Notes: generated by a model not told the origin, from the sequence alone. Positions 16,429 through 49,851 are shown, numbered from the stretch's first letter. The stretch: 64,000 nt of DNA from an uncultured delta proteobacterium (GCA_963731045.1 CAVSVC010000022.1:2113-66112); one strand, 5' to 3'. Numbers and translations: made by a program.

Positions 16429-16446
16429 ACTCTACAAGGAGCAAGA

Positions 16447-27956: not shown

Positions 27957-28919
27957 TCAGCGGGTGACCGAAACCCCCGTCAGGGAACAGTATGTCCGGC
28001 TCCGGCGCAGGACGCCGACGATCCCCTGCGGTGACAGCAGCATGATTCCCACGAGAATGGCGCCCTGGATCAGGAAACTGTAACCGGCGTACTTTGCGAG
28101 CAGGAAATAGAGGACGACGACAACCACCGTTCCAAAGATCGGGCCCTCCTCGGTGCGCGTCCCCCCGATGACGGCGGCCAGAAGCAATGTCATGGTCCAC
28201 GTGACATTGAAGGTGGCCGAAGGTTCGATGTATCCCTGGTAGAGGTAGAAGACCGCCCCTGCCAGTCCTGTAATCACCGCAGAGATGACGAAGGTGTACA
28301 GCTTCAACTTGAAGACGTTGATCCCGCAACCGGCCGCCGCTCTCTCATTGTCTCGGATGGCCGCGAGACCCAGCCCCAGATTCGATCTGAGAACAAAACG
28401 GACCAGGAAGACGGACCCGATACCGACGATCAAGGCAAACCAGTAGATATGGGCCATGGAGACCTCCGCGATCCCCTTGATCATATACCCCGCCCCGCCG
28501 CCGTCCATCTCCCCTCCCACAGGCTTCCAGAGATAGAAGAGGATCCTCAGGGCCTCGGGAACGACGAGCGTTCCGATGGCAAAATAGATCCCGCTGAGTC
28601 TGAACACGGGGAAAGAGATCACGAGAGCAAAGAGACCGGCCACGACCGCCCCCGCAAGAAGTCCGATCCACCAGGGGATTCCAACCCATGTGGTAATCGC
28701 CAGGGTATACCCTGCGAGCCCGAGGAAGGCAGGTTGACAGAGCGAGGTCAGCCCTGAATAGCCTGCGAGCAGGTTCCACATATTTGCCATGGCCAGATAG
28801 ATCGAAAAGAGGAAGACGTAGAGCAACCAGCTGCGCGGAGCCCCGATCAATGGAAACAGGACAAGGGCGATGCCGATCACGATCAAAGGCATGAATTTCG
28901 TCTTGAATCGAAATCTCAT
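27957..28919 (-). CDS. livM: ABC transporter permease (LivM family), second system
   Basis: Intact 320-aa polytopic ORF with NLLAGYSGLTSLCQPAFLGLAGY and LAAIRDNERAA. Confidence 0.9.
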   Translation of the reverse strand: MRFRFKTKFMPLIVIGIALVLFPLIGAPRSWLLYVFLFSIYLAMANMWNLLAGYSGLTSLCQPAFLGLAGYTLAITTWVGIPWWIGLLAGAVVAGLFALVISFPVFRLSGIYFAIGTLVVPEALRILFYLWKPVGGEMDGGGAGYMIKGIAEVSMAHIYWFALIVGIGSVFLVRFVLRSNLGLGLAAIRDNERAAAGCGINVFKLKLYTFVISAVITGLAGAVFYLYQGYIEPSATFNVTWTMTLLLAAVIGGTRTEEGPIFGTVVVVVLYFLLAKYAGYSFLIQGAILVGIMLLSPQGIVGVLRRSRTYCSLTGVSVTR

Positions 28920-28926
28920 TGCTCTC

Positions 28927-29790
28927 CTAACGGCCGAAGAGACCTTGCGGCCTGATCGCCAGTATCACCAGGACGATCATATACACGATCAGCATCTGCG
29001 TGGCCGAACCAAAGAAGTATCCTCCCATGGTTTGAACGACCCCCAGTGTCACCCCGCCGATAAAGGTTCCGAGCATACTGCCCAGACCTCCGATGATCAC
29101 GGTTCCAAAGGCGATCGTGAGCAGAGACGTCCCGGACGTGGGGGTAAAGGGAAACGTCATTCCCAGAAAAACCCCCGCGACGGCAGCGGAAACCATCGCA
29201 ATGGCGAAGGCATAGCCATAGATGCGGTTTGTGTTGATTCCCATCAGAAGGGCGGCCCTCCGGTCCTGAGAGGCAGCCATGATGGCTTTTCCAAGATAGG
29301 TCCGGCTGAGAAACTCGCGGAGAAGGATCATGACGACGATGCCGGCAATGAAGTCCAGCAGATAAGAGATCGGAAACTGAAGGCTTCCCAGGCTGAAACT
29401 GGTCAGGGAATAGGATGTGTTTAAACCTCTCGACAGCGGGGTCCACAGGATCTGGTTGGTGTTCTGAATGATCAGGGAAATGCCGAAGGCGATGATCAGC
29501 GGCGCCTCTGCGGAAATGGCAAAGGCACGGCCCATCAGGTACTTCTGGATGATAAACCCCAGGGCAAACATTCCGGGGATGCAGATGACCAGACTGACGA
29601 TGGGATCGAGCCCCGGGTAGGACATCAGGCCGAACGCGGCGTAACTCCCCAGGATCACCAGGTCGCCGTGGGCAAGATTGATCAATCTCATGACCCCGAA
29701 AACAAGGGAGAGACCCATGGCAATGAGCGCGTACAGGCCGCCCAGAAGAATCCCCATGATCAATGGAGTGAGGATGTCGCCTGAACCCAT
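28927..29790 (-). CDS. livH: ABC transporter permease (LivH family), second system
   Basis: Intact 287-aa ORF with LLGGLYALIAMGLSLVFGVMRLINLAHGD and MAASQDRRAA. Confidence 0.9.
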   Translation of the reverse strand: MGSGDILTPLIMGILLGGLYALIAMGLSLVFGVMRLINLAHGDLVILGSYAAFGLMSYPGLDPIVSLVICIPGMFALGFIIQKYLMGRAFAISAEAPLIIAFGISLIIQNTNQILWTPLSRGLNTSYSLTSFSLGSLQFPISYLLDFIAGIVVMILLREFLSRTYLGKAIMAASQDRRAALLMGINTNRIYGYAFAIAMVSAAVAGVFLGMTFPFTPTSGTSLLTIAFGTVIIGGLGSMLGTFIGGVTLGVVQTMGGYFFGSATQMLIVYMIVLVILAIRPQGLFGR

Positions 29791-29842
29791 TTACGCCTTT
29801 CCAGGATGACGGATTAGCATTTTGTTAATTTAATGATTGTTT

Positions 29843-29990
29843 GCAGGCTGCTCAAAAATGCCCAGATGCAAGGCGCCCGAAATCCTGAGGAGTGAGACAC
29901 CTTAAGGTACCTCACGGTACGGTACCTTAAGGTACCGCAGCGACGAAGGATGAGGGCAACGATGCAGATGGACGTTTTTCAGCAGCCTGC
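29843..29990 (+). repeat. About 148-bp nested-palindromic intergenic repeat, copy A (MITE/REP-like)
   Basis: Imperfect terminal inverted repeats: gcaggctgctcaaaaatgcccagatgca ... tgcagatggacgtttttcagcagcctgc. The GGTACCTTAAGGTACC core is itself a palindrome. Copies B (53510-53656, inverted) and C (58062-58209) are near-identical. This copy abuts the livF stop codon. Confidence 0.85.
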
Positions 29991-30709
29991 TACACGCCGA
30001 AGTAGGCCTTTCTCACCTGATCTTCCTCCCGGAGGTCCGAGGAGACGCCGCTCAGAACAACACGCCCGGTTTCAAGGATGTAGGCCCTATCGGCCTCCTG
30101 AAGGGTTCTCCGAACGTTCTGCTCTACAAAGAGGATCGTAATCCCTCTCTCCCGGATTTCCTTCAGCGCCCGAAACAGCTCGTTAATCACGATCGGAGCC
30201 AGGCCGAGAGACATCTCGTCAATGAGCATCATCTTCGGATCGGCCATCAGTCCTCTGCCGATCACGAGCATCTGCTGTTCTCCTCCGCTGAGCGTCTTTG
30301 CGGTCTGTTTCCGCCTCTCTTTCAGGAGCGGGAAGTGTTCGTAGACCTTCTCCAGGTTCTCTTCCTTCTTGCTTCGTGCCTTCCGGTTGTAGGACCCGAT
30401 GATGAGATTGTCCAAAACCGTTACATCCGGGAAGATCCGCCTTCCCTCCGGAATCTGCGTGATCCCGTTTTCCACAATCTCGTAGGGGTCCATCCGGGTA
30501 ATCTCCCGCCCGTCGAATTCAATGGTTCCTTTAGCAGGGTGGAGTAACCCCGAGATCGTATCGAGAAGGGTTGATTTTCCTGAGGTGTTGGCCCCGATCA
30601 GTGCCAGCATCTCCCCTTCCATTACTCGGAGCGATACATCCCAGAGTGCCTGAAAGGTGCCGTGGAAGACATCGATGTGATTCACAAGGAGAATGGGTTG
30701 CTGCGACAT
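29990..30709 (-). CDS. livF: ABC transporter ATPase (LivF family)
   Basis: Intact 239-aa ORF with GANTSGKST, LSGGEQQML and MLIDEMS. Confidence 0.9.
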   Translation of the reverse strand: MSQQPILLVNHIDVFHGTFQALWDVSLRVMEGEMLALIGANTSGKSTLLDTISGLLHPAKGTIEFDGREITRMDPYEIVENGITQIPEGRRIFPDVTVLDNLIIGSYNRKARSKKEENLEKVYEHFPLLKERRKQTAKTLSGGEQQMLVIGRGLMADPKMMLIDEMSLGLAPIVINELFRALKEIRERGITILFVEQNVRRTLQEADRAYILETGRVVLSGVSSDLREEDQVRKAYFGV

Positions 30710-30722
30710 TTTTCCCTATCAC

Positions 30723-31469
30723 TCAGGCCCCGAAGTAGGCATCGATCACCCTGCTGTCATTCATGATGGCCGTCGGCTCGCCTTCGGCGATCTTCATCCC
30801 TTTGTCGATGACGACGATCCGATCGACGGCGTTGACCATCACTTTCATGACGTGTTCGACAAGGATCATGGTGATCCCCATCTTTCTAATCTCTTTGATC
30901 GTCGCAAGGATTCTGGGGATCTCGATCTCAGTAGACCCTGCCGCCACTTCGTCGAGCAGCAGCAACTCGGGTTTTCGTGCAAGGGCTCTTGCGAGTTCGA
31001 GTTTCTTCAGGGATAAGATCGGAAGATTCCCGGCAAGGGTATCCTTCTTCTCGGAGAGATTGACCAGGTCAAAGATCTTTTCGTCTTCCAGGTCAGCCGC
31101 AGTCCTCCTCAATTGTCTCCCGAATACTGCGGAAACCAGCAGATTCTCGCGTACGGAGAGCGTCACAAAGGGCTGCGGGATCTGATAGGTCCTGGCAATG
31201 CCGAGATGGCAGACTTCGTGGACTGCACAGCGTGTGATATTACGTCCTTGAAACGTAACGGTCCCGTTGTCCGGAGTGTACTCACCGGCGATAATGTTGA
31301 GCAGAGTCGTCTTCCCCGCGCCGTTGGGTCCCATCAACCCGATGACTTCGCCGGGATAAACATCAAAACCGACGTTTTTCAACGCCACCAGGCCCCCGAA
31401 GCGTTTCGTAATACCCTTCACGCTCAGAATCGGCTCGCCCATCTTCTCCTTTGAACGTTCAGCACTCAT
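30723..31469 (-). CDS. livG: ABC transporter ATPase (LivG family)
   Basis: Intact 248-aa ORF with GPNGAGKTT, LKKLELARALA and LLLDEVAAG. An alternative start is Met10 at 31442. Confidence 0.9.
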   Translation of the reverse strand: MSAERSKEKMGEPILSVKGITKRFGGLVALKNVGFDVYPGEVIGLMGPNGAGKTTLLNIIAGEYTPDNGTVTFQGRNITRCAVHEVCHLGIARTYQIPQPFVTLSVRENLLVSAVFGRQLRRTAADLEDEKIFDLVNLSEKKDTLAGNLPILSLKKLELARALARKPELLLLDEVAAGSTEIEIPRILATIKEIRKMGITMILVEHVMKVMVNAVDRIVVIDKGMKIAEGEPTAIMNDSRVIDAYFGA

Positions 31470-31584: not shown

Positions 31585-32073
31585 TTATCTTCTTTTCCTT
31601 GAGCCTTCAGCCTTCGCTTTCCTTGCCCGCACCCTGGTAAGCGTCTCAGAGATCTTATCCACATCCAGGGCGATCTCCATAAGCTTCAGATGCTCCTCAT
31701 AGCATGCAGGGTCGATCTGGGCCTTCATCTCAGGCTCGATGATGTGATATACCGGGAGCCCCAGTGCGACTCCGGCCAGCGGTCCTGCCCAGGTCGGGTC
31801 TCCATTCGTTACCGTCTCAGCATAGAGCTCGGCGCTATCGGCATCCGGAGCCCCGAGGACAACGATGAGATCTTCCTTGCCGTACTGCTCTGCGACCTTC
31901 TTGATGCTTTCCTGACCTTCCAGGTCAAGGGCGCCTGCCGCAGTTCAGACAAAACACTGTGTCTGTACCAGCAGAGGCTCGGCTCCCGCACTCTGAACAC
32001 AGGCCGCGATCGCCGGTCCCTGAATCCCATCCCGTTCCCCCAGGATGATCACTTTCTTCCCTTTCAGTTTCAT
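31585..32073 (-). CDS. grdA: Glycine/sarcosine/betaine reductase complex selenoprotein A (GrdA), with in-frame UGA = Sec43
   Basis: Absent from the ORF track because it is split by TGA at 31945-31947. GGGAGG precedes ATG 32073. My translation is [101 protein letters not shown].., 162 codons ending at TAA 31585-31587. CFVUTAAGA is the GrdA active-site signature. Confidence 0.85.
31911..31929 (-). promoter_or_regulatory. Candidate SECIS hairpin for grdA
   Basis: The mRNA reads C-U-UGACCU-GGA-AGGUCA-G-G, an 8-bp stem including one G.U pair, starting 15 nt 3' of the UGA. Confidence 0.35.
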
Positions 32074-32181
32074 TGCCCATCCTCCCGTCTCAGACCCATT
32101 CCAACGTCCAGTTCCCGGGGACTTAAACGGATTCGATTTCCCTTTAGGTCGTGGGAGCTACTCTGGAATTTGGTGCTTTTC

Positions 32182-32511
32182 TTATTGCCCAACAATTTCT
32201 TTGATCGCTTCTTCAATATCCTTCTTGGTAAGCTGTTCGCCGGACAGACGCTTGACCTCAACCCCATTTCTGTAGAAGAGAAAGGAAGGGAGACCCAGGA
32301 CCCGCAGCTTTGCACAGAGCATGCGGTTCCCCGCAGCGGCATTCAGCTTTGTGACCTTGATTTTACCGGAGTACTCCTGCTCAAGGTGCTCAATGCTCGG
32401 CATCAGGGCCAGGCATGGAGCGCACTGGGGGCCCCAGAAATCTACAAGAACAGGCAGTTCCGATTGGAGAACTTCCGTTTCATAGTTGTCTTTATGAACG
32501 TCCACAGCCAT
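32182..32511 (-). CDS. trx: Thioredoxin with a CAPC redox motif
   Basis: Intact 109-aa ORF with VLVDFWGPQCAPCLALMP...LGLPSFLFYRNG. The ATG overlaps the grdC stop as TAATG. Confidence 0.9.
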   Translation of the reverse strand: MAVDVHKDNYETEVLQSELPVLVDFWGPQCAPCLALMPSIEHLEQEYSGKIKVTKLNAAAGNRMLCAKLRVLGLPSFLFYRNGVEVKRLSGEQLTKKDIEEAIKEIVGQ

Positions 32512-33992
32512 TATTCGTTACCCCCCTCGTTCTTTTCGAGCAAGATCGATATTCCGTCGGAAAGCTGCGTCAACCGTCCGAGAAAGAGGCTCCCCTTGGC
32601 CAGAAGCATCGTATTTCTCAGCTTTCCCGACTTGATATTCCGGATGGCATGACCGAGATACGGTATGGCCGAAGCAATATGCCCCTGGGTTGGAGAAAAA
32701 CCGGGCATCCCGTGGGTCTTCACAAACTGGTCCAGCTCGCTCTTCTGAATCTCATTTCGCAGGACGGCAAAGCTGCCGATCGTCCGGTAATTCGTGCGGG
32801 GAACATTTCCACTCCCCTGCGGCTCCGTCACTTCCGGATTGTGCATCTCTGTCGCATATTTATCGATCTGGGTCAGCTTAAGTCCAAGCCGGTCGAGGGG
32901 CTCGACGACCAGCTTCTCGAGGATCGCCTGCTGAGCGGAGCCTGAGCTGATTTCATGTTTTCCAATAGAATCCAGACGGATGACCGGGCTTCTTCCGTCA
33001 TCCTGAGTCACCCAGACAGCGATTCCCGCCAGAAGATCCTCCAGGACCGGCATATCATGCCGAACGTGCCCCTGGAATTTCATCCCCAACTTCGCCAGGG
33101 ATCCCCCCGCCACCATCACCACGTTGCTGAAAACGCCGGAGGAGACCAATCCCGCCGCCATCATCAGGGCGTGAACAGGCGCGCAGCAGAAGGCCTTGAC
33201 GTCGGAACCCGTCGCCCGGGTGCAACCGCACAGCTGCCCGATTGCCTTGGCCAGGTTTCCTCCTCCGCGGTTATAACGGTCTCCGATGGCTTCCTCTCCA
33301 TACCCGATGAGATAATCGATATCTTTTGCCGAACCGGTCTTTGAAATGAGGTTTCGCAATGCCATCACCCCGGAGGCTCTTGAGGATAGATTTTCGAGCA
33401 TGATGGAGGGAATAAGGTTTTCATCCTCCTCGGCGCCATCCCCCTGCGGTCTCTTCACGCATCCTACGAGGCGGTTCCCCTGGACATAGAGGGGCAGGAC
33501 ATCTCCTTGCTCCAGCTTCTTTTCCAGCCCCTCTTTGGAAACGCCTTTGCCGAGTTTCTGAATATCCTCCTCCACAAAAAGCGGGTGAACCCTGAGCATG
33601 GCCACCACACCGTCCAGAAAACTCTCCTCGAGTGTGATCAGGCCGAACTCATCACAGAGCTTCAACACCCCGTAGAACTCCTCCTCCGGCATGATCTCCC
33701 CGAACTCGCCCCACCGCGAAGCATTCGGAACAGGATTCCGATACCACGGAGAAGGCGTGTTCCACAATTCGTCGGGATCAAGATTTCCAATGAAAACCTG
33801 ATTCGGCGGATAAGGAACGGCCTGCTCGAAAGGTCTTAAATGGTTGAGGATCGGCTGCAGTTGTGATGGATCATGTCTGATCTCCCGAGAGGGCTTTGAC
33901 CCGTACCGGATCAGGCTCGGCACGTGGGCAAGAAAATAAGAAACCCCTGTAATGACCGGGAGCATCCGTTTATCCGACGAACGATGGGACAT
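32511..33992 (-). CDS. grdC: Glycine/sarcosine/betaine reductase component C beta subunit (GrdC)
   Basis: Intact 493-aa ORF with blocks I recognise from clostridial GrdC: VPYPPNQVFIGNL.PDEL, RLVGCVKR, NRGGGNLAKAIG, ATGSDVKAFCCAPVHAL, EMHNPEVTEPQGSGNVPRTNY, AKGSLFLGRLTQLSDGISI. Confidence 0.85.
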   Translation of the reverse strand: MSHRSSDKRMLPVITGVSYFLAHVPSLIRYGSKPSREIRHDPSQLQPILNHLRPFEQAVPYPPNQVFIGNLDPDELWNTPSPWYRNPVPNASRWGEFGEIMPEEEFYGVLKLCDEFGLITLEESFLDGVVAMLRVHPLFVEEDIQKLGKGVSKEGLEKKLEQGDVLPLYVQGNRLVGCVKRPQGDGAEEDENLIPSIMLENLSSRASGVMALRNLISKTGSAKDIDYLIGYGEEAIGDRYNRGGGNLAKAIGQLCGCTRATGSDVKAFCCAPVHALMMAAGLVSSGVFSNVVMVAGGSLAKLGMKFQGHVRHDMPVLEDLLAGIAVWVTQDDGRSPVIRLDSIGKHEISSGSAQQAILEKLVVEPLDRLGLKLTQIDKYATEMHNPEVTEPQGSGNVPRTNYRTIGSFAVLRNEIQKSELDQFVKTHGMPGFSPTQGHIASAIPYLGHAIRNIKSGKLRNTMLLAKGSLFLGRLTQLSDGISILLEKNEGGNE

Positions 33993-34010
33993 AAGACGGC
34001 AATTCCTTTC

Positions 34011-34166
34011 TTCAACGATTATTGAGTCAATGAGTTATTGAGTGATATTAAGTGAATGAAAACCCTTATTGACTCTCATTAACTCGATATGGGAATTCAA
34101 TTACCTCATTAACTCTATTCATCTAGTTCATGGATGTCCTTCTTCTGATCACTGATCACTGGTTAC
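34011..34166. repeat. Intergenic block of heptamer-periodic repeats with dyad symmetry (attgagt caatgag ttattga.. / ..ctcattaactc.. / tctgatc actgatc actggtt actgatc)
   Basis: Read directly from the sequence. It fills most of the 193-bp spacer between the grdB-like gene and grdC. Confidence 0.55.
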
Positions 34167-34185
34167 TGATCACTCGTTTTTGCCT

Positions 34186-35487
34186 TTAGCACAGGATCCT
34201 CTGTTCCTCGATCTCGGTCTGCAGGGCTTTCAACGCCTTTTCAACAATCGAACGGCGCAGCTTCTTCTCTTCCGGTCCGGGAAGATCTGCATTGCCCAGC
34301 GGATTGACGATCTTCTGGCCGGGAAGAATCCTCATGGAACCCACCATCTGGGCAACGGGGGTGATCGCACAGAGGTGAACGGTGGGAATCCCGACCCTCT
34401 CTATCTCCTTTGTGAGCGTTGCACCGCAACGCGTGCTCGTCCCTCAGGTGGAGGTCAGGATCACCCCGGAAACTCCATCCGCCTTCAACTCCCCGGCAAT
34501 CCGTTCTCCCAGTTTTCTCATGACCTCTACGATATTCGCAACACCTGTTGTGCTGTAAAACCTGTCATGGAGCTTCCCGATCAGCCCTTCCCGTTCGAGA
34601 TCCCTGAGAACGTCCACAGGGACCAACCGGTTCGGGTCCTGCCTCACGAAGATCGAGTCATAGCCTTCATGACTGACTTCATAATCTTCGGGATGGAGTC
34701 TTTCGACATCCTTAATATCATATCTCCCAAAACGCGTTGCCGTCCGGATCTCAATCCTGTCCGGATTCCCTTTCGGAACCAGCCCGCCATCCGTCACCAG
34801 CGCAATCTTCGCCTTCCCGATCTCTTTGATGGCCGGGGCCGGCTTCACCCGGTCGTACGTGGGCCGAGGGACTTCGGATTCATACGGCTCTCCCCGCAGT
34901 TTGCACAGCAGCAGGTCCAGAACGCGTTCCGCCCCTGTTCTGTCTGAGATTTCATTCACCAGCAACCCACGGGGGAAGTATCCCTCTTCAGAAGGTTTTC
35001 CTATCCTCTCTTTGGCCACAAGCTTCCGGACAAGGGCCACGATCTTGCCGACAGCCTCAGCCATTCCCCTCGCGGAGTCCACGGTTTGAATAATATAGAC
35101 CTCGTTCCGGTACATGTCGACGCTGGGGTTTTCCTGATACATTCCGGTGACGGCCGGGATTCCCAGTTGCTCCTGGACGATCTTGCAAACGGCGCCGCAG
35201 GCGATGCCGTATCGTCCCGCGTTAAAGGCCGGTCCCGCAATGACGACGTCGGGCCCATAGGAATCAATCATGCTTCTTACTTCCGCCGAGGCCCCTTCAA
35301 TATTTTCCGCAAAATAGTTGTCGCCGCAGATCACGGTAGCCACCACCTGTCCTTCTTTTCCCAAGGCGGCCTGGATAGCTCTGCCCGGCCCCACGGCTCC
35401 TTCGGTCACCCGGGGAGGCAGGTGCGCCTTATCTTCTCCGCCAATCCCGCCGAAAAACTGATTGACATAATGGACCACTCTGATCAT
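34186..35487 (-). CDS. Selenoprotein B family reductase subunit (GrdB/GrdF/GrdH-like), with in-frame UGA = Sec348
   Basis: Track ORF 34444..35487 (MIRVVHYVNQFFGGIGGEDKA...GVILTST) stops at TGA. The same frame continues GTSTRCGATLTKEIERVGIPTVHLC...QRILC to TAA 34186-34188, giving 433 codons. Confidence 0.85.
34416..34432 (-). promoter_or_regulatory. SECIS-like stem-loop for the grdB-like gene
   Basis: The mRNA reads GCGUUGC-GGU-GCAACGC, a perfect 7-bp stem with a GGU loop (17 nt). It begins exactly 11 nt after the UGA at 34446-34444. Confidence 0.55.
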
Positions 35488-35611
35488 TTAAACTCTCCTG
35501 ATCTCCACCCCCATCCCGACTGAGGGCACTAAGCGATGCGTTGCCGATTCACTTCCGATTTTGTTCTAACGCTATGCCCTATGCCCATGTTGCGCTATGC
35601 GGGTTTTCCCA

Positions 35612-36914
35612 TCAATACCGGACTGCCTTCAGTTTTGAACTCCCGAGCTGGCACTGTGAACCCTTAATCCAGCGGATGGACCTCATCATCTCGCCGTCAA
35701 CCGGCGCCCCCTCCTGCGACGGATCGGGTCTTCCGATGATCCTGTCCACAGCAGGCAGCAGCACATCCATGAAAGGGACCCCCATGCTCACGATGGCATC
35801 CACTTCCGGCATGCTGAAGATCGTGGTGGCCCCGAATTTCGCATCGCTGATATCCGCCCCCATGTGGAGCATGGCAATGGCCGTTTTGATCCCGAGCTGT
35901 TCACAACGCTGGGCAGTCCTTGCCATGGTCAGTTCAGGGGCGCCCCCTCCCGTCTTCGTCAGGACCGCACCCTCTGCGCCGACAACGTATCCGGCCAGAT
36001 TTGCCGAGATGTTCGAAACCCGCTCAATGTCCGCCACATTGTTCGGTGCAAGGGTAATGATCACCCCCGCAAAACGAAAGTTCTCTTCCATGTCTTCTGT
36101 AGAGTTCTCTGATGATCGGGTGATTCTGGATCTGATAGGTTTGCACGTTCAACGCCGGCAGGGCGGATGTGATTGCCCCATCCAATACCTCGTTGGGATG
36201 AACCAGGGTGGGAACCATATCCGGGACATTCCTACCGTACAGCACAGGCTCTCCCGGGATGGGTTCGAATTGCAGGGTCTGAATCTGAAAGATGTAGACG
36301 ATCCGGGGAAGCTTTCCGGAAACCTCCACACTCGCCGTCAGCGGAAGAAGCTCAAACACCTCGGTCTCATCAGGCGTAACGCCCTTCCCCGCCTTTGCAA
36401 GATAGGCGGATGCCTTCAGTCCGGCGACCTTCATCGCAGCCATGTATTCCTGCGTGGTCACACCCTGTGAAGGAGTTCCCAGCAGAACAATATTCCGGGT
36501 CTTTCCAAAGGTGCTCACCTCCGCGCCCGGACCGGACATATCGATGATCTCCCCGTTAGGGTATGAACTCGTGCTGCCTTCACGCCTCTCCCGGTAGTCG
36601 CTCAAGACGACGGCAGTTCCCTTTAAGACACACGTGCTTCCTGTGCCCGCGGCTGCCTGCCCTCCTACGGCCCCGGGAAAATCCTGATCTCCGTTGCTTG
36701 TTTTTGCTCTTGGTTCGATCACATCCAGCACCTTCAGGATGCGACATTTCTCCCCGGGCTGAGCCAGATCAATCTCAATGGATTGAAGCCTCTGATCCTC
36801 CAGCAGGAGGTTCTGAAGCTCACTGCGGTTGATAGATAAGACCCCGTCGCTAACGGCAGTTCTGTCTCCGAATCGAATCCCTCGAATCTTCAGAATATTC
36901 AGTTCAAGTCTCAT
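35612..36914 (-). pseudogene. GrdE/GrdG/GrdI-like substrate-binding proprotein of reductase component B, one frameshift
   Basis: Track ORF 36024..36977 (from Met22: MRLELNILKIRGIRFGDRT..IDLAQPGEKCRILKVLDVIEPRAK..HPNEVLDGAITS..HPIIRELYRRHG) joins ORF 35612..36091 (NFRFAGVIITLAPNNVADIERVSN..GAEGAVLTKTGGGAPE..) at about 36080. Confidence 0.8.
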
Positions 36915-37092: not shown

Positions 37093-38436
37093 TCATTCAT
37101 ACGGAATGGGAAAGATGAACTGGGCTTCCGGCTTGACGAAGCTGTGCTTGGAGCTGACGATTCTCAATTCCCACTTGTGCGGTTTGTCCACCTTTCGCCA
37201 CTGACCGAAGCTCAGCGGGATGAGGTTGAACTGGTTCGAGTCAAATTTCACCCGCGCGTTGATCGTCATGAGGTCCGTGCTTTCCAGGGCTTTGTTCACC
37301 CCGTCGGTGCTGAGTGTCCCTGCCCTCTCAATCGCATCCGCCAGCACCTGGATCACATAATACCCCAGACCGATATTGTCGTTCAAGGTCTGGCCGGTAT
37401 CCTTGGTCCACTTCTCCGCCAGGGATTGAGCCGTCGTGCTCCCGACGCCCTTCGTCACAAAAGACGGGTTCCACTTGATCTCCAGACCGATGCCCAGCGG
37501 GAGGTCCCCTCCCCAGGACGCGACATCGATGTAATTTGCAGGGGCTTTCCCGCAGAAGACGGCCTTGGGTTTGAAGCCGAGTGAGCGGGCCTGTTTCCAG
37601 AGGGCCCCGAACTGCGGGGCAGCACAGTTCCCCCAGAGCACCTCCACCCCGTCCGCCTTCCACTTCGAAATGATGGAGGAGAAGTCCGTCGTCTCTCCCG
37701 GGAAGAGGCCCAGTTTCTGTTCGATACCGGAAACAAAGTAGCCTTTCTCTTTCAGGGCCGTCGGGAAGAGCGAATACCAGGCCACACCATCCGGATCATT
37801 CGAAGAAAAGACGCCCACTTTCTTGTTGGTCTTATCGGCGATCTGGTCCAGGGTGGGCAGCCAGGTGTCCAGGATCGTAAACCCCGGCTGTTTATACCGG
37901 AAATCCCCGGGTTGTGCGCCGGCGGCAATCGAAAAACCGAAAGCCCAGGTGTTCTTCCAACCCGGCGATGCATTCTTCCGCATGGCCAGCCAGGGTTCCA
38001 GAACCGCGGCGTGGGCAAGGTGAACCACGTTGTATCTCTGGGCCATGGTGGCTGCCAGGCTGTGCATCGGGGGAGGTTCATTTCCGGTAACCAGGAAATT
38101 GACCTTCTGCCCCACGATCATCTGTTCAGCAAGGGCCCCGGCCTTCTGGGGGTTGCTCTCCGTATTCGCGAAGGTGATCTCGAGGGGGATCTTTCTACCG
38201 AACTCCTTGACCATCACTCCGCCCTGTTTGTTGATATCTTCCACCGCTGTTTTCGCACCCCACGATTGCCCCTGGCCAAACCCTGCAAACATCCCGGTCA
38301 GGGATGCGGGCGAACCGATCAGGATCTTGTCAGGCCCCTTTCCGGTTGACTGCGCCGACACCTGTCCTCCGAGCATCAATCCCAACATGAGGACGACCGA
38401 TAGAAGAACGACCCTTCTTTTCTCCATCTTTTTCAT
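37093..38436 (-). CDS. Liv-type ABC substrate-binding protein (orphan, next to the Grd genes)
   Basis: Intact 447-aa ORF. The signal is MKKMEKRRVVLLSVVLMLGLMLGGQVSA. A type I PBP-like body follows (ILIGSPASLTGMFAGFGQG..AVEDINKQGG). Confidence 0.85.
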   Translation of the reverse strand: MKKMEKRRVVLLSVVLMLGLMLGGQVSAQSTGKGPDKILIGSPASLTGMFAGFGQGQSWGAKTAVEDINKQGGVMVKEFGRKIPLEITFANTESNPQKAGALAEQMIVGQKVNFLVTGNEPPPMHSLAATMAQRYNVVHLAHAAVLEPWLAMRKNASPGWKNTWAFGFSIAAGAQPGDFRYKQPGFTILDTWLPTLDQIADKTNKKVGVFSSNDPDGVAWYSLFPTALKEKGYFVSGIEQKLGLFPGETTDFSSIISKWKADGVEVLWGNCAAPQFGALWKQARSLGFKPKAVFCGKAPANYIDVASWGGDLPLGIGLEIKWNPSFVTKGVGSTTAQSLAEKWTKDTGQTLNDNIGLGYYVIQVLADAIERAGTLSTDGVNKALESTDLMTINARVKFDSNQFNLIPLSFGQWRKVDKPHKWELRIVSSKHSFVKPEAQFIFPIPYE

Positions 38437-38619: not shown

Positions 38620-40450
38620 CTACGGGATTTCGCCTTTATCCGCCTTGTCGGCCTTCAGTTTCTTTCGTAAGGCCGTCGTCGCCTTAGGATCCACTTCAGA
38701 TCCGTTCCCTTCTTGAACACAACACCATATGCCTTGTTCGCCTTTTCAGGGGAGATATACCGATTGAGGACATCCCACCGGACCTTCTGGACATCCCGCT
38801 GCAGGGGATCTCCGACACCGCCGCCTCCGCCCGATTTGCTCCAGAGGATATCGCCGGGTTGAACGTACTGAACGTCATTGCAGCGCAGCTTTTCTTTCTT
38901 TCCTTTCCGGATGATGCCCAGCTGGTGTTTCTTTCCTTCGGTCCCTCCCAGCAATCCCAGGCGCCGAACTTCTCTCCGTCGGAATTGCCCGTCATCACGA
39001 CACAATCATGGGCCTGCCAGACCTTGCGATCGTAGGTATTCAGGATCTCCCAGTGGACACCCGTTGCCGCCCCGCCATTTCCCGTCACCTGCTGAGTCCG
39101 TGATGAACTCGTGACGCAACCATCGATACGGAGTCTCCCATTCCTCCGGTTCTATCGGCGCCCTCAGAGACCCGCCCGCTCCGAGAACCCAGCAGAGTCC
39201 ATCCCAGCCGTCGTAGCCATAGATGGCCCCCATCGAACCATCCCCGTGAAAGGGGGCCGTCCAGTAAAGCTGGGGGGATTTGGTTCGCGGGATCAACGAG
39301 GTCCCGACGCCTCCCGGTGATAATGGGATTCAGGTGCCGCGCCCAGAGGGCGGAAGTATCCTTCGGAACCACCTGGCCCAGGGCCACCTGGACACATTCC
39401 GTAACATGCGTCCCCAGCGTGGGGGCCTGGGCCCCGCTGGTTGCCGGATAAATCGGGTCGAGGACCGATCCCTCCTTGGTTAGAATCGTGAGGCAATTCA
39501 TCAACCCCTGGTTCCGCGGGGTTTGCGGAGGAAGGGACCATGCCACTGCAGTCACGATGGCTGCCCGGGTCTGGCCCTGTGGGCAATTGATAAAATCAAC
39601 CTGGGCGTCGCTCTCCCTAAAGTCCAAGATCAGTTGCCCCTCCTCGGGCTTGACGGTCATGGTCAAGCCTCACCCAGACCGGCTTATCCACGGTTCCGTC
39701 CCAGTCCGCAGCCCGTTCGGCCCGGTAGGTACCCGCCCGCCACGTCGAAATGACCTTCCTCACCGATTCCTCCGTCCGGCTTGACGATCTCGTTGCAGGC
39801 CTCCAGCACCGTCTCCTTTCCGTAACTCTTCACCAGCTCGAGCAACCTCTTCTCGGCCATCTTCATGGAGGCATAGGTCAGCAGGCAGTCGGCACGGACC
39901 ATGGTGGATCCCCTCGAACGTTGCGCAGGATGACTGACAGGACCTTTTCATCAATCTTCCCCCGCTCGATCAGCTTCACGGGCGGAATCATGATCCCCTC
40001 CCCATGGCAGTCATAGGTCCGGGGATAATAGCAGCCCTGGTACGAGCCGCCCGCATCGTACTGATGGGTTCTCATGAAATGATAGAACACCAGTTCCCCT
40101 TCAAAGAAGATGGGCCGAATGAAGGAGAAATCCGGGGCATGGCCGAACTTCACGATAAAGGGGTCGTTGGCCACGATGAAGTCATCCTCGTGGATATTCT
40201 CCCGGCCGATATAATCCAGCATCCCCTTCAGACAGACATCCGACCCGGCGGTGTGGACGGGCATCCAGTTGCCGATGGTAATGGTCCGCTCATTCCGGTC
40301 AAACAGGGCCGTGCCAATGTCCCGGATATGGGCCGTTGCAAAGGAGAAGCACTGACGGAATAGCCTGAACCCGAGTTCCTGATTCTGGGAATTCAAGCGG
40401 CCTTCGATGATCGATAGCGTCAAGGGATCAATGGGTTTGCTCGTGCTCAT
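38620..40450 (-). pseudogene. hyuB: Hydantoinase B / oxoprolinase family subunit (HyuB), at least five frameshifts
   Basis: Starts MSTSKPIDPLTLSIIEGRLNS..RDIGTALFD. Later blocks fall in shifting frames: MVRADCLLTYASMKMAEKRLLEL, TVKPEEGQLILDFRESDAQV, CPQGQTRAAIV, YGYDGWDG, DSAGDGKWRGG.G, SGGGGGVGDPLQRD, ending ..KADKGEIP* at 38620. Confidence 0.8.
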
Positions 40451-42527
40451 GATGACCTCCTTATGCTCATGATATAGTTATGATAGGCATCGACCGTCAG
40501 TTCGGTTCCCTTCGGTACGACGATGGTCGTCGTCGGATCCTCCACGATCGCCGGCCCATCGATCACGTTCCCATGCTTCAGCCGATTCGCATCGTAACAG
40601 GGTGTTTCGGCGAATCCCCCAAGTTCTTTAAAGTAGACCTGCCTCTTCCTTTTGAAAGCCCCTGAGGCATCTCTTCCCATGTCCGGCTGTTTGATCAGCT
40701 CAACCGGACGCCTCACGCCGATCGCCCTGACCTTCAGCGTCGAGATGGCCACCGCCATGGCCGGGTCGGACCACCCGTAGATCGCCTGGTGTCTTGCGTG
40801 GAATTCCGCTGATCAAATCCTTCAGGGTCTGATCCGTAAAGGGTTCTCCTCTCCGGTTTTCCGGCAGGAAGATGACGATATCACGAAGTTGTCCGAGGTA
40901 TCGCATCTCAGCGCCCCGCACCAGTTTCATATCTCTCTCCGGGGAGGCCCTGTTTCGCCAGGGTATCGACCCCTTCGCTTTCCAGCGAGTCATACCAGCC
41001 CTTCATATCCTCTACACGAAGTTGATCTTCGCCCCGGTAGATACAGAGGTTCAGAATATATTCGTAGTTGGCCAGCGCCGCTCCAAGGGCGCAGAAGGCC
41101 GCAGCCTGTCTCGGAATGTAGATCTGCGAGATCCCCAGGCGGGATGCGATCGCAGCGGCATGGACCGGACCGGCCCCTCCGCCGGCAATCAGGGTAAAGT
41201 CCCGCGGATCGAGCCCCCTTTCCACCGCACTGAGAAAGATCCCCTGAGCCATGTTGTCCTCAACGAGAGCGGCAACGGCATGGGCAGCGGAAACCACATC
41301 CAGATTCAATGGCTTTGCAACCTTCTTCTCCATCGCATCCTTGGCCAACCCGGCATCCAGTGTGATGGTCCCACCGAGGAAAAAGTCAGCGGGAATGTAT
41401 CCCAGAATCACATCCGCATCCGTGACCGTCGGATCCTGGCCGCCCTTCCGGTAGCACGCCGGTCCGGGATCGGCCCCGGCGCTCGACGGACCCACCTGAA
41501 GGATGTTTCGAGCGTCGATTCTGGCAATGCTTCCCCCACCCGCCCCGATGCTGCTCACGTCCACGGACTCCAGGGCGTTGATGAAATCGCCTACCCTCAT
41601 TTCCGGGGTGACATGGATGGTGGCCCCCGGAAGCATACTCATATCAAAGGTGGTTCCCCCCATGTCGGCGACGATCACATTCTTAAACCCGCACAGCGTT
41701 GCCAGGAACCGTCCGAGCAAGGGCCCGGCAGCAGGACCCGAGCCAATGAGGAGAGCGGGGTTGTCCAGGCACAACTCCGGAGAGGCTACCCCGCCGATAC
41801 ACGTCGTAAACAGGTAGGTCCCTGCGAACTGACCGCACTTCAGCTCTTCACTCAGACTCTCGATGAAACGGGCCACCACGGGTTTCACGGATCCCGCAAT
41901 CATGGCGGTGCTCAGGCGGTCCCACTCCATCCAGCGCCGCAGGATATGGGATGAGAGCACTACATTCGGGTACTCTTTCTTTATGATCTCCCCTGCCTTT
42001 TCCTCATGCGCCGGGTTGATGTAGGAGTGAAGAAAGCAGACGACAGGCACCTCGACGCCCTGCTGTTTGGCTTTCTTGACCGCGTCGCGCACATCCTTTT
42101 CGTTGAGCGGGGTCACAATCTCTCCGTTGAACTGGATCCGTTCCTCGACTCCGAAACGCAGATAGCGCGGAATAAAACTCTCCGGTGCGGGTAGTTTGAG
42201 ATTGTAGATTTCATCCTTGGGAATCCGCCGGCCCAATTCCGGGATATCCCTGAAACCCTTGGTGTAGATCAGGCAGCACTTTGCCCCTTTCTTCTCCACC
42301 ACCGTGTTTGTCGGAAACGTCGTGCCGATCACGATGGTCGTCGTATCTTTCAGCAGGTCCTGCGTCGTACACGCGCGCTGCTCGGCAAACCGTTCAATGC
42401 AGCCCATGATGCCGAGGGACGGATTGGCGTGGTCCGTAGGGACTTTCGCCATGAAAATTCGCCGATCGTCGTCTATCAGTATTGCATCCGTAAACGTTCC
42501 ACCGGTGTCCACAACGATTTCGTACAT
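40447..42527 (-). pseudogene. hyuA: Hydantoinase A / oxoprolinase family subunit (HyuA), two frameshifts near the 3' end
   Basis: Track ORF 40908..42527 (MYEIVVDTGGTFTDAIL..ADMGGTTFD..GAGGGSIA) is followed by 40700..40993 and 40447..40758 (..VEDPTTTIVVPKGTELTVD). The stop overlaps the hyuB ATG as ATGA. Confidence 0.85.
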
Positions 42528-44522: not shown

Positions 44523-44552
44523 CTTCCTCTCCTTTCTATCGAAGGTATTCTC

Positions 44553-46340: not shown

Positions 46341-46397
46341 TCACATTCCCCTTTCCATCATTCTGATTGACATCGGCAGTTTACAGACAGACTCGAA

Positions 46398-47902: not shown

Positions 47903-47908
47903 CAGGTT

Positions 47909-49654: not shown

Positions 49655-49791
49655 CTTCTCGCCCTCCTTTTTCTATGAATGGTTCGCGCAGGATATTTGC
49701 GCCCTTAGCAGAGATCAACGGTCGTCGGGCAGGAACCCGAAAACAAGGTAGATTCGTGTTTATATTGTTGCCGGTCGAATTTCTCCGTCCT

Positions 49792-49820: not shown

Positions 49821-49851
49821 CAAAGAACACATTTCAAAAGTTACATTTCGC

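What the first reader, a model, noticed from the sequence alone, without database searches (positions are those of the whole stretch)
31585..36914. The Grd-type reductase cluster has a non-canonical make-up and may act on a non-glycine substrate
The cluster reads grdE-like, grdB-like(Sec), grdC, trx, grdA(Sec). Three things are unusual.
(1) The Sec context is U-G-T-S-T-R-C. As far as I recall, characterised GrdB has U-x-x-C-x-x-C, so the first resolving Cys is replaced by Ser.
(2) In the GrdE-like proprotein, the segment between HPNEVLDGAITS and HPIIRELYRRHG (ALPALNVQTYQIQN) has no Cys. GrdE, GrdG and PrdA make their pyruvoyl cofactor by self-cleavage at a Cys in this region. The betaine-specific GrdI is the known unprocessed exception.
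(3) Only grdC is present. No grdD (protein C alpha) and no thioredoxin reductase are anywhere in the 64 kb.
The organism does not look like a Firmicute, and the cluster is embedded between an ATP-dependent hydantoinase/oxoprolinase pair and Liv-type ABC importers. Together this suggests a betaine-like or so far uncharacterised substrate specificity.
Basis: partly seen in the sequence, partly recalled or inferred. Interest (0 to 1): 0.8.

Follow-up and report, generated by a model that had tools for sequence, protein, structure and literature searches.

The report
Non-canonical Grd-type selenoprotein reductase cluster
This is a selenium-dependent reductase cluster of the glycine-reductase type whose substrate-binding subunits belong to a widespread but uncharacterised bacterial lineage that lacks the usual self-made cofactor site, so it probably reduces something other than glycine, most likely the ring-opened product of the ATP-dependent lactam/hydantoin hydrolase encoded next to it.

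Summary
All three sequence observations are real. The GrdB-like selenoprotein reads U-G-T-S-T-R-C where reference GrdB, GrdF and GrdH read U-G-T-C-T-R-C. The GrdE-like protein has Pro where reference GrdE/GrdG have the pyruvoyl-forming Cys242, and it lacks the second Cys. No grdD or trxB is in the 64 kb.

None of this is an assembly artefact. The one-base indel lies about 20 codons downstream of the site. A close relative from a short-read assembly has the same operon with every gene intact.

The traits are lineage-wide. In 40 loci carrying grdC, 29 of 29 grdD-less loci pair a Cys-less E with a B lacking Cys at U+3. All 11 grdD-linked loci have both Cys.

The window pair fails the published glycine (GrdB) and sarcosine (GrdF) motifs and every NCBIfam equivalog cut-off. 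It is no closer to betaine reductase than to the others.

The order regulator, HyuA, HyuB, binding protein, E', B', grdC, trx, grdA, ABC importer recurs in related genomes.

Best reading: a pyruvoyl-independent B component that reduces a carboxymethyl compound produced by the ATP-dependent lactamase. The substrate is unknown; a ureido-glycine is my speculative guess. This is a new variant of a known kind.

The parts
42821..43423 (+). Divergent XRE-type HTH plus cupin regulator. It is the candidate effector-sensing regulator of the operon.
   Evidence: Pfam HTH_3 plus Cupin_2. The same family occupies the same position in L013, L014 and L169/L170.
40453..42527 (-). hyuA-like gene: alpha subunit of an ATP-dependent lactamase/hydantoinase/oxoprolinase. 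It is broken by two frameshifts in this assembly.
   Evidence: tblastn gives 72-81% identity to L004 HyuA in three reading frames. L004 HyuA has Pfam Hydant_A_N, Hydantoinase_A and Hydant_A_C. Its nearest PDB entries are 6YRA caprolactamase and 7HK5 N-methylhydantoinase.
38703..40450 (-). hyuB-like gene: beta subunit of the same enzyme. It is broken by at least two frameshifts.
   Evidence: tblastn gives 75-81% identity to L004 HyuB in three reading frames. Pfam Hydantoinase_B. PDB 6YRA_B scores 196 bits and 7HK5 scores 195 bits, against 83 and 47 bits for the carboxylases.
37093..38436 (-). Periplasmic substrate-binding protein (Peripla_BP_6, Liv/urea type).
   Evidence: Pfam. It is 74% identical to the protein at the same position in L004. 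It is also present in L169.
35612..36914 (-). grdE-like gene (E'): alpha subunit of the substrate-specific protein B. It is 433 aa after removing one base, and it has no processing Cys.
   Evidence: Pfam PF09338, E=1e-96. More than 120 homologue clusters of 428-434 aa at 61-86% identity. Motif alignment.
36064..36074 (-). Site of the one-base insertion (T4 run 36071-36074 or G5 run 36064-36068) that splits E' into two ORFs.
   Evidence: Frame comparison. Alignment to intact homologues. Nucleotide alignment to the intact L169 gene shows a single net indel here.
36129..36170 (-). Codons for TSALPALNVQTYQI, which replace the canonical SGNC(242)VSACDKNPTY pyruvoyl-forming segment.
34186..35487 (-). 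grdB-like selenoprotein gene (B'), 433 aa, with Sec348 in the context TSTUGTSTRC.
   Evidence: PF07355, E=2e-148. TIGR01918 subfamily, 563 bits. Motif.
34416..34432 (-). SECIS-type hairpin GCGUUGC-GGU-GCAACGC, starting 11 nt after the UGA (hairpin starts at the 15th base counted from the U of UGA).
   Evidence: The same hairpin is found downstream of the UGA in A. noterae grdB and in L004 grdB'. The energy z-score alone is not significant.
32511..33992 (-). grdC (protein C beta subunit, thiolase-like) of the grdD-less class.
   Evidence: NF040746 scores 647 bits against a cut-off of 450. Eight positions discriminate the grdD-less class from the grdD-linked class, and the grdD-less class has an extra invariant Cys257.
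32182..32511 (-). Grd-type thioredoxin (WGPQCAPC).
   Evidence: PF00085. The best NCBIfam match is the clostridial TrxA model, 119 bits against a cut-off of 140.
31585..32073 (-). grdA, selenoprotein A, with the motif CFVU. Sec codon at 31945-31947 and a downstream hairpin at 31911-31929.
   Evidence: NF040748 scores 224 bits against a cut-off of 130. The hairpin has z = -2.6.
27957..31469 (-). Liv-type ABC importer: two ATPases and two BPD_transp_2 permeases.
   Evidence: Pfam. Same position in L013, L014 and L169.

Best explanation
The cluster encodes a working Grd-type selenoenzyme system. It comprises selenoprotein A, thioredoxin, protein C beta and a two-subunit substrate-specific protein B. 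The B component (E'B') belongs to a distinct, widespread, uncharacterised lineage.

E' is not a self-cleaving proprotein and makes no pyruvoyl group. The substrate is therefore not activated as a Schiff base. In this respect it works like betaine reductase and fluoroacetate reductase.

Proposed pathway:
1. The Liv-type ABC system and its binding protein import a cyclic amide.
2. The HyuAB enzyme opens the ring at the cost of ATP.
3. Sec348 of B' attacks the alpha-carbon of the resulting X-CH2-COO- compound and expels X.
4. The carboxymethyl group passes to Sec43 of GrdA.
5. GrdC takes it up as an acetyl thioester.
6. Thioredoxin re-reduces GrdA.

Shown: gene identities, motifs, their conservation and the synteny.
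Inferred: the absence of processing, the link between HyuAB and E'B', and the carboxymethyl chemistry (from the presence of grdA and grdC).
Speculative: the identity of X. I favour a ureido or amidino nitrogen, as in N-carbamoylglycine or N-carbamoylsarcosine. Also speculative is the fate of the acetyl group without GrdD.
For: - Domain and family assignments.
- The Cys242 column is Pro, and the second Cys lies in a 4-residue deletion. This holds in all 30 clade members.
- U-G-T-S-T-R-C is found in most clade partners; a few read U-G-S-S-T-R-C or U-G-T-S-T-R-G, and none has Cys at U+3.
- The window subclade is monophyletic in 100 of 100 NJ bootstraps and is separate from the GrdE/GrdG/GrdI group.
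- B' fails the glycine and sarcosine motifs, while controls pass.
- HyuA-HyuB sits directly upstream of E'B' in the window, L004, L005/L006, L010, L013 and L169/L170. A 40%-identical HyuAB paralogue sits there in L014. HyuAB also occurs beside a second Cys-less group in L044 and L072.
- HyuAB is closest to solved caprolactamase and N-methylhydantoinase, not to the carboxylases.
- grdC-trx-grdA follow E'B' in the window, L007, L013, L015, L020, L023, L025, L028, L129 and L169.
- FarE/FarB and GrdI are published precedents for unprocessed alpha subunits (PMC10838667).
- A close relative has every gene intact.
- The neighbourhood is rich in genes of cyclic-ureide metabolism: a DHOase/hydantoinase-like amidohydrolase, PyrD/PyrK and a RutB-like hydrolase.
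Against: - No member of the clade has been characterised, so substrate and activity are inferred only.
- HyuAB is adjacent in only about half of the subclade loci that have enough upstream sequence. L003, L008, L009, L011, L027 and L095 lack it.
- A ureide anion is a poor leaving group, and no precedent exists for its reductive displacement.
- The role of the GrdE pyruvoyl group in catalysis is itself debated (PMC9908766). Its absence therefore does not strictly exclude glycine.
- Without GrdD, the known route to acetyl phosphate is missing.
- In this assembly, E', HyuA and HyuB are frameshifted.
Confidence: 0.55

Rival explanations
1. It is an ordinary glycine reductase of a non-Firmicute type. 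It would serve glycine fermentation or the reductive glycine pathway and bind glycine without the GrdE pyruvoyl group. The HyuAB adjacency would be incidental or would merely supply glycine.
For: - All Grd components except GrdD are present, and GrdA and GrdC pass their equivalog cut-offs.
- B' scores 551 bits on the glycine GrdB model, not far below the cut-off of 602.
- The catalytic role of the GrdE pyruvoyl is not settled, and a second carbonyl on GrdB has been proposed (PMC9908766).
- Databases label relatives 'glycine reductase'.
Against: - B' fails the glycine-specific motif (AHGGxD..RV[IL]PxD..TxGNxTxV) that all control GrdB sequences from grdD-containing loci carry or nearly carry.
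- Both processing Cys are lost across the clade.
- The clade is separate from all reference-type enzymes checked here.
- Tight, repeated synteny with an ATP-consuming lactamase and an importer is not expected for glycine.
- There is no glycine riboswitch.
Confidence: 0.15
2. It is a reductase for betaine or another quaternary or tertiary N-methylated glycine (glycine betaine, dimethylglycine).
For: - Like GrdI, E' lacks the Cys at the processing position.
- A charged amine leaving group needs no Schiff base (established knowledge of betaine reductase).
- JGI auto-annotation calls some relatives 'betaine reductase'.
Against: - B' scores 468 on the GrdH model, where 775 is needed.
- E. gilvus GrdH keeps U-x-x-C-x-x-C and sits with grdD and a BCCT transporter. 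None of these applies here.
- GrdI clusters with canonical GrdE/GrdG in 96 of 100 bootstraps.
- The transporter here is a Liv-type ABC system.
- A betaine substrate would not explain the HyuAB link.
Confidence: 0.12
3. In this organism the cluster is a decaying pseudogene array and has no current function.
For: One frameshift in E', two in hyuA and at least two in hyuB.
Against: - The indel in E' lies in a homopolymer stretch.
- Other genes across the window also look split into adjacent ORFs (ORF list; read by eye, not checked by alignment), as expected from an error-prone long-read assembly.
- B', grdC, trx, grdA, the binding protein and the ABC genes are intact.
- A relative with 82-85% nucleotide identity from a short-read assembly has all genes intact in the same order.
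Confidence: 0.07

Closest known systems
Glycine reductase GrdE/GrdB with GrdA, GrdC, GrdD, TrxA and TrxB (Acetoanaerobium, Peptoclostridium, C. difficile)
   Same: - Same Pfam families for both B subunits.
- Sec in the TSTUG context with the same downstream hairpin.
- Same GrdA (CFVU), GrdC and Grd-type thioredoxin.
- Genes are clustered.
   Different: - No Cys242, so no pyruvoyl site in E'.
- Ser at U+3.
- Fails the glycine-specific GrdB motif.
- E' is 36-40% identical and B' is 51% identical.
- No grdD next to grdC.
- GrdC belongs to a distinct class.
- Linked to HyuAB and a Liv-type ABC importer.
Betaine reductase GrdI/GrdH (reference used: Enterococcus gilvus pCR1A cluster, PGAP-annotated)
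   Same: The alpha subunit lacks the Cys at the processing position. Activation is therefore presumably independent of a Schiff base.
   Different: - GrdH keeps U-G-T-C-T-R-C.
- GrdI keeps the canonical loop length.
- The cluster has grdD and a BCCT transporter.
- Identity is 32% (E') and 44% (B').
- GrdI branches with the canonical clade.
Fluoroacetate reductase FarE/FarB (Cloacibacillus porcorum; PMC10838667)
   Same: - A B-component variant acting on a substrate that cannot form a Schiff base.
- FarE lacks both processing Cys.
- FarB lacks the CxxC.
- It feeds the shared GrdA/GrdC.
   Different: - E' scores 203 bits on the FarE model, where 675 is needed.
- No MFS antiporter or radical-SAM gene is in the window operon.
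- B' retains the U+6 Cys.
Sarcosine reductase GrdG/GrdF and the anaerobic N-methylhydantoin pathway (Clostridium sp. FS41; PMC4417704)
   Same: A hydantoin-type ring opening feeds a Grd-type reductase that produces an acetyl unit.
   Different: - The known route runs through N-carbamoylsarcosine amidohydrolase to free sarcosine, and uses a Cys242-bearing GrdG and a GrdF-motif protein.
- Here no carbamoylase is in the conserved module.
- Here E' is Cys-less.
- Here B' fails the GrdF motif.
ATP-dependent lactamases: caprolactamase CapAB (PDB 6YRA) and N-methylhydantoinase (PDB 7HK5)
   Same: - Two-subunit HyuA/HyuB architecture.
- Best sequence matches: 387 and 355 bits for the alpha subunit, 196 and 195 bits for the beta subunit.
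   Different: - Below the CapA/CapB equivalog cut-offs (557 and 245, where 1000 is needed).
- The substrate is unknown.

Membership tests
Grd/Prd selenoprotein B superfamily (TIGR01918 'various_sel_PB'; Pfam GRDB) | Full-length match above the family cut-off | tested here: met
   TIGR01918 scores 563 bits against a cut-off of 65. PF07355 E=1.8e-148.
Grd/Prd selenoprotein B superfamily (TIGR01918 'various_sel_PB'; Pfam GRDB) | In-frame UGA in the conserved TSTUG context, with a downstream hairpin | tested here: met
   TSTUGTSTRC. The hairpin GCGUUGC-GGU-GCAACGC is shared with A. noterae grdB.
Glycine reductase protein B (GrdB/GrdE) | NCBIfam equivalog TIGR01917 at or above 602 bits | tested here: not met
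   551 bits.
Glycine reductase protein B (GrdB/GrdE) | U-x-x-C-x-x-C around Sec | tested here: not met
   U-G-T-S-T-R-C. The U+3 column is Cys in 29 of 29 sequences carrying the canonical U-G-T-C-T-R-C motif (the group is defined by that motif) and in 0 of 53 others.
Glycine reductase protein B (GrdB/GrdE) | GrdE proprotein with the Cys242 self-cleavage / pyruvoyl site | tested here: not met
   Pro is at the aligned column. The only Cys in E' are at 57, 95, 337 and 421. Actual processing is not testable in silico.
Glycine reductase protein B (GrdB/GrdE) | Published glycine-specific GrdB motif (PMC9751293) | tested here: not met
   The window has SHEGYDS, RLVPVD and TTGVANIV. A. noterae and 6 other GrdB controls pass.
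Glycine reductase protein B (GrdB/GrdE) | Glycine-dependent acetyl phosphate formation | not testable with these tools
   Needs an enzyme assay.
Sarcosine reductase GrdF/GrdG | NF040794 at or above 800 bits, NF040793 at or above 780 bits, and the GrdF motif (IHGGYDR, TTGTGT) | tested here: not met
   580 and 269 bits. The motif is absent, while P. acidaminophilum GrdF and the Synergistota controls pass.
Betaine reductase GrdH/GrdI | NF040795 at or above 775 bits | tested here: not met
   468 bits.
Betaine reductase GrdH/GrdI | Unprocessed alpha subunit (no Cys at the processing position) | tested here: met
   Shared with E. gilvus GrdI (SGSFMPC) at the level of the Cys242 column.
Betaine reductase GrdH/GrdI | Phylogenetic grouping with GrdI/GrdH, and a BCCT-type betaine transporter in the cluster | tested here: not met
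   GrdI joins the canonical clade in 96 of 100 bootstraps, while the window subclade is separate in 100 of 100. The transporter here is a Liv-type ABC system.
Fluoroacetate reductase FarE/FarB | NF053623 at or above 675 bits | tested here: not met
   203 bits.
D-proline reductase PrdA/PrdB | TIGR04480 at or above 700 bits and TIGR04483 at or above 300 bits | tested here: not met
   26 and 96 bits.
Selenoprotein A (GrdA) | NF040748 at or above 130 bits, and the C-x-x-U motif | tested here: met
   224 bits. Motif CFVU.
Protein C (GrdC plus GrdD) | GrdC: NF040746 at or above 450 bits | tested here: met
   647 bits.
Protein C (GrdC plus GrdD) | grdD (PlsX-like alpha subunit) present, normally directly downstream of grdC | tested here: not met
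   No tblastn hit or HMM hit in the 64 kb, or in any of 29 related grdD-less loci. Presence elsewhere in the genome could not be tested.
ATP-dependent lactamase/hydantoinase/oxoprolinase (HyuA/HyuB) | Hydantoinase_A and Hydantoinase_B domains in adjacent genes | tested here: met
   Pfam on the intact L004 orthologues. The window copies are 75-81% identical to them.
Caprolactamase CapA/CapB | NF050156 and NF050157 at or above 1000 bits | tested here: not met
   557 and 245 bits.

The most novel reading that the evidence does not exclude
The window may represent a second, non-Firmicute architecture of the Grd system: a Cys-less alpha subunit, no Cys at U+3, and a GrdC class that works without GrdD.

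In this reading the system reductively cleaves ureido- or amidino-substituted acetates directly. Examples are N-carbamoylglycine or N-carbamoylsarcosine from hydantoins or creatinine-type rings opened by the ATP-dependent HyuAB. The carbamoylase step would be bypassed.

The acetyl group might be released as acetyl-CoA through the thiolase-like GrdC rather than as acetyl phosphate.

That would be a new anaerobic route for cyclic ureides and a new reaction type for selenoprotein reductases.
Probability: 0.12. Interest if true: 0.85.

Novelty: new variant of a known kind. Interest (0 to 1): 0.6.

Why it matters
Only four substrate specificities are documented for Grd-type reductases: glycine, sarcosine, betaine and, recently, fluoroacetate. 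All come from Firmicutes or Synergistota.

This cluster belongs to a large radiation in Desulfobacterota-type, Chloroflexota, Burkholderiales and other MAGs. Databases label its members arbitrarily as glycine, sarcosine or betaine reductase. As a result, metagenomic inferences about glycine reduction or trimethylamine formation are probably wrong for this lineage.

The linked loss of the pyruvoyl Cys, the U+3 Cys and GrdD gives a simple sequence rule for separating the two architectures.

The fixed pairing with an ATP-dependent lactamase, a dedicated binding protein and a cupin regulator gives a concrete handle for finding the substrate. It also raises a testable question: how is the acetyl intermediate released without GrdD?

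Tried and rejected
- **Covariation as mechanism.** I first thought the perfect covariation of the E Cys242 and the B U+3 Cys showed a mechanistic link between that Cys and the pyruvoyl group. E. gilvus GrdI/GrdH breaks the rule, with a Cys-less GrdI and a full CxxC in GrdH. I dropped the idea. The three-way association with grdD absence still holds.
- **E' as two naturally split ORFs.** Rejected. More than 120 homologue clusters are single proteins of about 433 aa, and L169 differs by one base at that spot.
- **PDB search.** No solved homologue of E' and no meaningful hit for B'.
- **Exact look-up of the window's own proteins.** The aim was to get the contig record and taxonomy. It failed three times.
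- **NCBIfam scans of other Cys-less groups.** I hoped one would be GrdH. None reached the cut-off.
- **Metagenome scan.** It gave mostly short contigs and only one further HyuAB-linked locus, which is the same contig as L004.
- **Literature searches.** No paper mentions grdB together with hydantoinase. Searches for 'grdD' were swamped by unrelated acronyms. I found no paper describing the grdD-less class.
- **Promoter/terminator and Rfam scans.** Nothing above chance, and no riboswitch.
- **Structure prediction.** Not run. The tool returns no coordinates, so it could not show where the clade-specific Cys57 lies relative to the lost pyruvoyl loop.

Full report
**What is in the window**

Five co-directional genes lie on the minus strand between 36914 and 31585.

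- A GrdE-like gene runs from 36914 to 35612. Pfam PF09338 matches at E=1e-96.
- A GrdB-like selenoprotein gene runs from 35487 to 34186, with an in-frame UGA at 34446-34444. PF07355 matches at E=2e-148.
- grdC runs from 33992 to 32511. NCBIfam NF040746 scores 647 bits against a cut-off of 450.
- A thioredoxin gene runs from 32511 to 32182.
- grdA runs from 32073 to 31585, with UGA at 31947-31945. NF040748 scores 224 bits against a cut-off of 130.

A hairpin, GCGUUGC-GGU-GCAACGC, starts 11 nt after the grdB-like UGA, at the 15th base counted from the U. It has the same sequence and position as in Acetoanaerobium noterae grdB and in a related locus. grdA also has a strong downstream hairpin with z = -2.6. 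Sec decoding is therefore plausible.

No tRNA gene and no Rfam family, including the glycine riboswitch, is present in the window.

**The frameshift**

The GrdE-like gene is split into a 317-aa ORF and a 159-aa ORF. More than 120 homologue clusters at 61-86% identity are single proteins of 428-434 aa. The alignment shows the two window ORFs join at RHGRELSF|AGVIIT.

A close relative comes from a short-read assembly (L169/L170). Its GrdC is 90% identical to the window's, and its nucleotide identity across the operon is 82-85%. It has an intact 433-aa gene. The window differs from it by one net inserted base inside a T4/G5 homopolymer stretch at 36064-36074.

hyuA and hyuB in the window carry at least four more frameshifts. 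Other genes across the window also look split into adjacent ORFs in the ORF list. I read this by eye and did not check it by alignment.

An error-prone assembly is the simplest explanation. Recent gene decay cannot be strictly excluded.

The Cys-less segment (codons 249-262, nucleotides 36170-36129) lies upstream of the indel and is unaffected by it.

**Checking the three claims against real reference sequences**

I retrieved annotated references from the plasmid collection.

- The A. noterae chromosome-like record carries the canonical operon grdX-trxB-trxA-grdE-grdA-grdB-grdC-grdD (L002).
- The P. acidaminophilum megaplasmid carries grdG and grdF (L001).
- The Enterococcus gilvus record carries trxB-trx-grdA-grdC-grdD-grdI-grdH-BCCT (L087).

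In GrdE and GrdG, the motif SGNC places its Cys at exactly residue 242. This is the residue shown by mass spectrometry to become the pyruvoyl group in C. difficile GrdE (PMC9908766). The window protein has Pro at that column. A 4-residue deletion removes the second conserved Cys.

GrdB, GrdF and GrdH all read U-G-T-C-T-R-C. The window reads U-G-T-S-T-R-C.

GrdD, TrxB and GrdX queries find nothing in the 64 kb. A GrdD profile built from 10 sequences finds nothing there even at E<=10.

**The traits belong to a lineage**

Eighty genome loci and eighty metagenome loci related to E' were collected.

The Cys242 column is Cys in 32 of 32 Firmicute/Synergistota-type sequences and in 0 of 59 others. 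The U+3 column is Cys in 29 of 29 sequences carrying the canonical U-G-T-C-T-R-C motif and in 0 of 53 others. That group is defined by the motif itself. In the window clade, U+3 is Ser in all 27 sequences and U+6 is Cys in 93% of them.

Among the 40 loci that contain grdC, 11 have grdD. All 11 also have the Cys242-type E and U-G-T-C-T-R-C. The other 29 lack grdD. All 29 have a Cys-less E and Ser or Gly at U+3.

The grdD-less GrdC proteins form a recognisable class. Eight alignment positions discriminate them from grdD-linked GrdC at 90% or better. They also carry an extra invariant Cys (residue 257 in window numbering) in addition to the universal thiolase-type Cys269.

The window is therefore one member of a broad, uncharacterised, mostly non-Firmicute architecture of the Grd system. 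Labelled hosts include Deltaproteobacteria, Desulfobacteraceae, Syntrophorhabdales, Dehalococcoidia, Anaerolineales, Burkholderiales, Planctomycetota and Binatia.

The sample was selected by similarity to E'. The proportions are therefore not population estimates.

**Specificity tests**

- **NCBIfam.** The pair falls below every specific model. The scores are GrdB 551<602, GrdF 580<800, GrdH 468<775, GrdG 269<780, FarE 203<675, PrdA 26<700 and PrdB 96<300.
- **Published motifs.** Nobu et al. (PMC9751293) used motifs to define glycine-specific GrdB and sarcosine-specific GrdF. I applied them as regular expressions. The controls behaved as expected. The window protein matches only the shared N-terminal part. 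At the diagnostic positions it has SHEGYDS, RLVPVD and TTGVANIV.
- **Phylogeny.** In neighbour-joining trees with 100 bootstraps, the window subclade (15 sequences at 60% identity or more) is monophyletic in 100 of 100. GrdI joins the canonical GrdE/GrdG clade in 96 of 100.
- **Pairwise identity.** E' is 36-40% identical to GrdE, 34-38% to GrdG and 32% to GrdI. B' is 51% identical to GrdB, 52% to GrdF and 44% to GrdH.

The pair is thus neither glycine-type, sarcosine-type, betaine-type nor fluoroacetate-type by any sequence criterion available to me.

**Genomic context**

Upstream of E' lie three genes.

- A Peripla_BP_6 substrate-binding protein is at 38436-37093.
- hyuB is at 40450-38703.
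- hyuA is at 42527-40453.

A divergent XRE-cupin regulator lies at 42821-43423.

Downstream of grdA are two complete Liv-type ABC systems.

The order regulator | HyuA-HyuB-(binding protein)-E'-B'-grdC-trx-grdA-ABC is reproduced intact in L169/L170 and in L013, a Desulfobacteraceae MAG. The core HyuA-HyuB-(binding protein)-E'-B' recurs in L004, L005/L006 and L010. L014 has a 40%-identical HyuAB paralogue in the same place, with the same regulator family. A different Cys-less group (L044, L072) also has HyuB-HyuA beside an ABC importer.

About half of the subclade loci with enough upstream sequence lack HyuAB. The link is therefore strong but not universal.

The HyuAB proteins are closest to solved caprolactamase (6YRA) and N-methylhydantoinase (7HK5). 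They are much further from acetone and acetophenone carboxylases. They fall below the caprolactamase equivalog cut-offs. This makes them an ATP-dependent lactam or hydantoin hydrolase of unknown substrate.

A DHOase/hydantoinase-like amidohydrolase sits next to the regulator in L169. It is 83% identical to window gene 49909-51333.

The window also encodes three related functions.

- A class 1B dihydroorotate dehydrogenase, with what looks like its PyrK-type partner (inferred from position; it gave no Pfam hit).
- Genes I take to be TctABC transporter components, identified by eye from their translations rather than by a search.
- A RutB/biuret-amidohydrolase-like hydrolase.

This gives the neighbourhood a cyclic-ureide flavour.

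**How it most likely works**

The presence of grdA and grdC in the operon implies that the group transferred from B' is a carboxymethyl group. This inference rests on the established Grd mechanism. The substrate should therefore be X-CH2-COO-.

The loss of both processing Cys across the clade implies that no pyruvoyl group forms and no Schiff-base activation occurs. This matches what is published for GrdI and FarE (PMC10838667). X should therefore be a group that cannot form, or need not form, an imine.

The fixed pairing with an importer and an ATP-dependent ring-opening enzyme points to the ring-opened product as the substrate.

The only characterised HyuAB-type reaction that yields a glycine derivative is the conversion of N-methylhydantoin to N-carbamoylsarcosine. 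The known anaerobic route then needs a carbamoylase and a Cys242-type sarcosine reductase (PMC4417704). Neither is present in the conserved module.

I therefore favour direct reductive cleavage of a ureido- or amidino-acetate, at low confidence.

Electrons come through the Grd-type thioredoxin. trxB is adjacent in related loci (L011, L014, L029), so its absence here is not meaningful.

How the acetyl intermediate leaves GrdC without GrdD is open. GrdD is the PlsX-like subunit that forms acetyl phosphate in the canonical system. Transfer to CoA by the thiolase-like GrdC is a possibility I cannot test.

**Verdict**

'Non-canonical' and 'probably not glycine' hold. 'Betaine-like' does not.

The feature is a new variant of a known kind. 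It is a member of a sizeable uncharacterised lineage and not a one-off. Its practical value lies in annotation and enzyme discovery.

Noticed in passing
window 32511-33992; loci L007, L013, L020, L028, L079, L086 and others: grdD-less GrdC proteins (25 sequences) differ from grdD-linked GrdC (12 sequences) at eight positions, each discriminating at 90% or better. They also carry an extra invariant Cys (residue 257 in window numbering) near the thiolase-type Cys269. This suggests a GrdC class adapted to work without GrdD.
   Followed up: partly
window 38703-42527, 36064-36074 and elsewhere: Frameshifts are frequent: at least two in hyuB, two in hyuA and one in grdE'. Other genes also look split into adjacent ORFs in the ORF list, for example at 831-1801, 4345-5141, 16291-18295 and 45479-46340. 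I did not check those by alignment. A related short-read contig (L169) has the operon genes intact, which points to a long-read homopolymer error profile.
   Followed up: partly
window 34416-34432: The SECIS-type hairpin downstream of the grdB' UGA is built from the codons for T-R-C-G-A-T. The retained U+6 Cys codon (UGC) therefore forms part of the stem. RNA structure may constrain this part of the 'CxxC' motif as much as protein function does.
   Followed up: no
window 43506-51333 and 61731-62390; L169 1-390: The neighbourhood is rich in cyclic-ureide enzymes. These are a DHDPS-family protein, a class 1B dihydroorotate dehydrogenase with a probable PyrK-like partner (no Pfam hit), genes I read by eye as a TctABC transporter, a DHOase/hydantoinase/allantoinase-like amidohydrolase, and a RutB/biuret-amidohydrolase-like isochorismatase. 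The amidohydrolase is below all equivalog cut-offs and is 83% identical to the one beside the regulator in L169.
   Followed up: partly
window 19512-22838: A pyrogallol-hydroxytransferase-like molybdopterin enzyme (AhtL-like first domain) with a 4Fe-4S subunit. This is typical of anaerobic degraders of aromatic compounds.
   Followed up: no
L044 10001-20718; L072: A different Cys-less E group (SGNYVYA-CFK, with B reading U-G-T-G-T-R-C) occurs in Ardenticatenaceae and Caldilineaceae. In L044, where the intervening genes were annotated, a flavin amine oxidase gene lies between E and B, followed by an NMT1-type ABC importer and HyuB-HyuA. L072 shows the same E, gap, B, HyuB-HyuA layout by tblastn. 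This is a second, independent pairing of a Grd-like B component with an ATP-dependent lactamase.
   Followed up: partly
L003 13378-16315; L008: In two subclade loci without HyuAB, E'B' is followed by a GMC oxidoreductase and a radical-SAM gene. The fluoroacetate far operon also contains a radical-SAM gene.
   Followed up: no
L024 (Betaproteobacteria MAG), L028 (Anaerolineales chromosome), L011: Single contigs carry two or three different E/B pairs with different Sec motifs: U-G-T-S-T-R-C, U-G-S-G-T-R-S and U-G-T-G-T-R-S. These organisms therefore have several substrate-specific B components that presumably share one GrdA/GrdC.
   Followed up: no
L004 18392-18907: A 171-aa protein with only the N-terminal GRDB domain (the 'GrdB-related, no Se' type) is encoded 6 kb from the E'B' pair.
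   Followed up: no
Database names of homologues: Close homologues of the same E' and GrdC proteins are labelled variously 'glycine reductase', 'sarcosine reductase', 'betaine reductase' or 'hypothetical protein'. The labels are automatic and inconsistent.
   Followed up: yes
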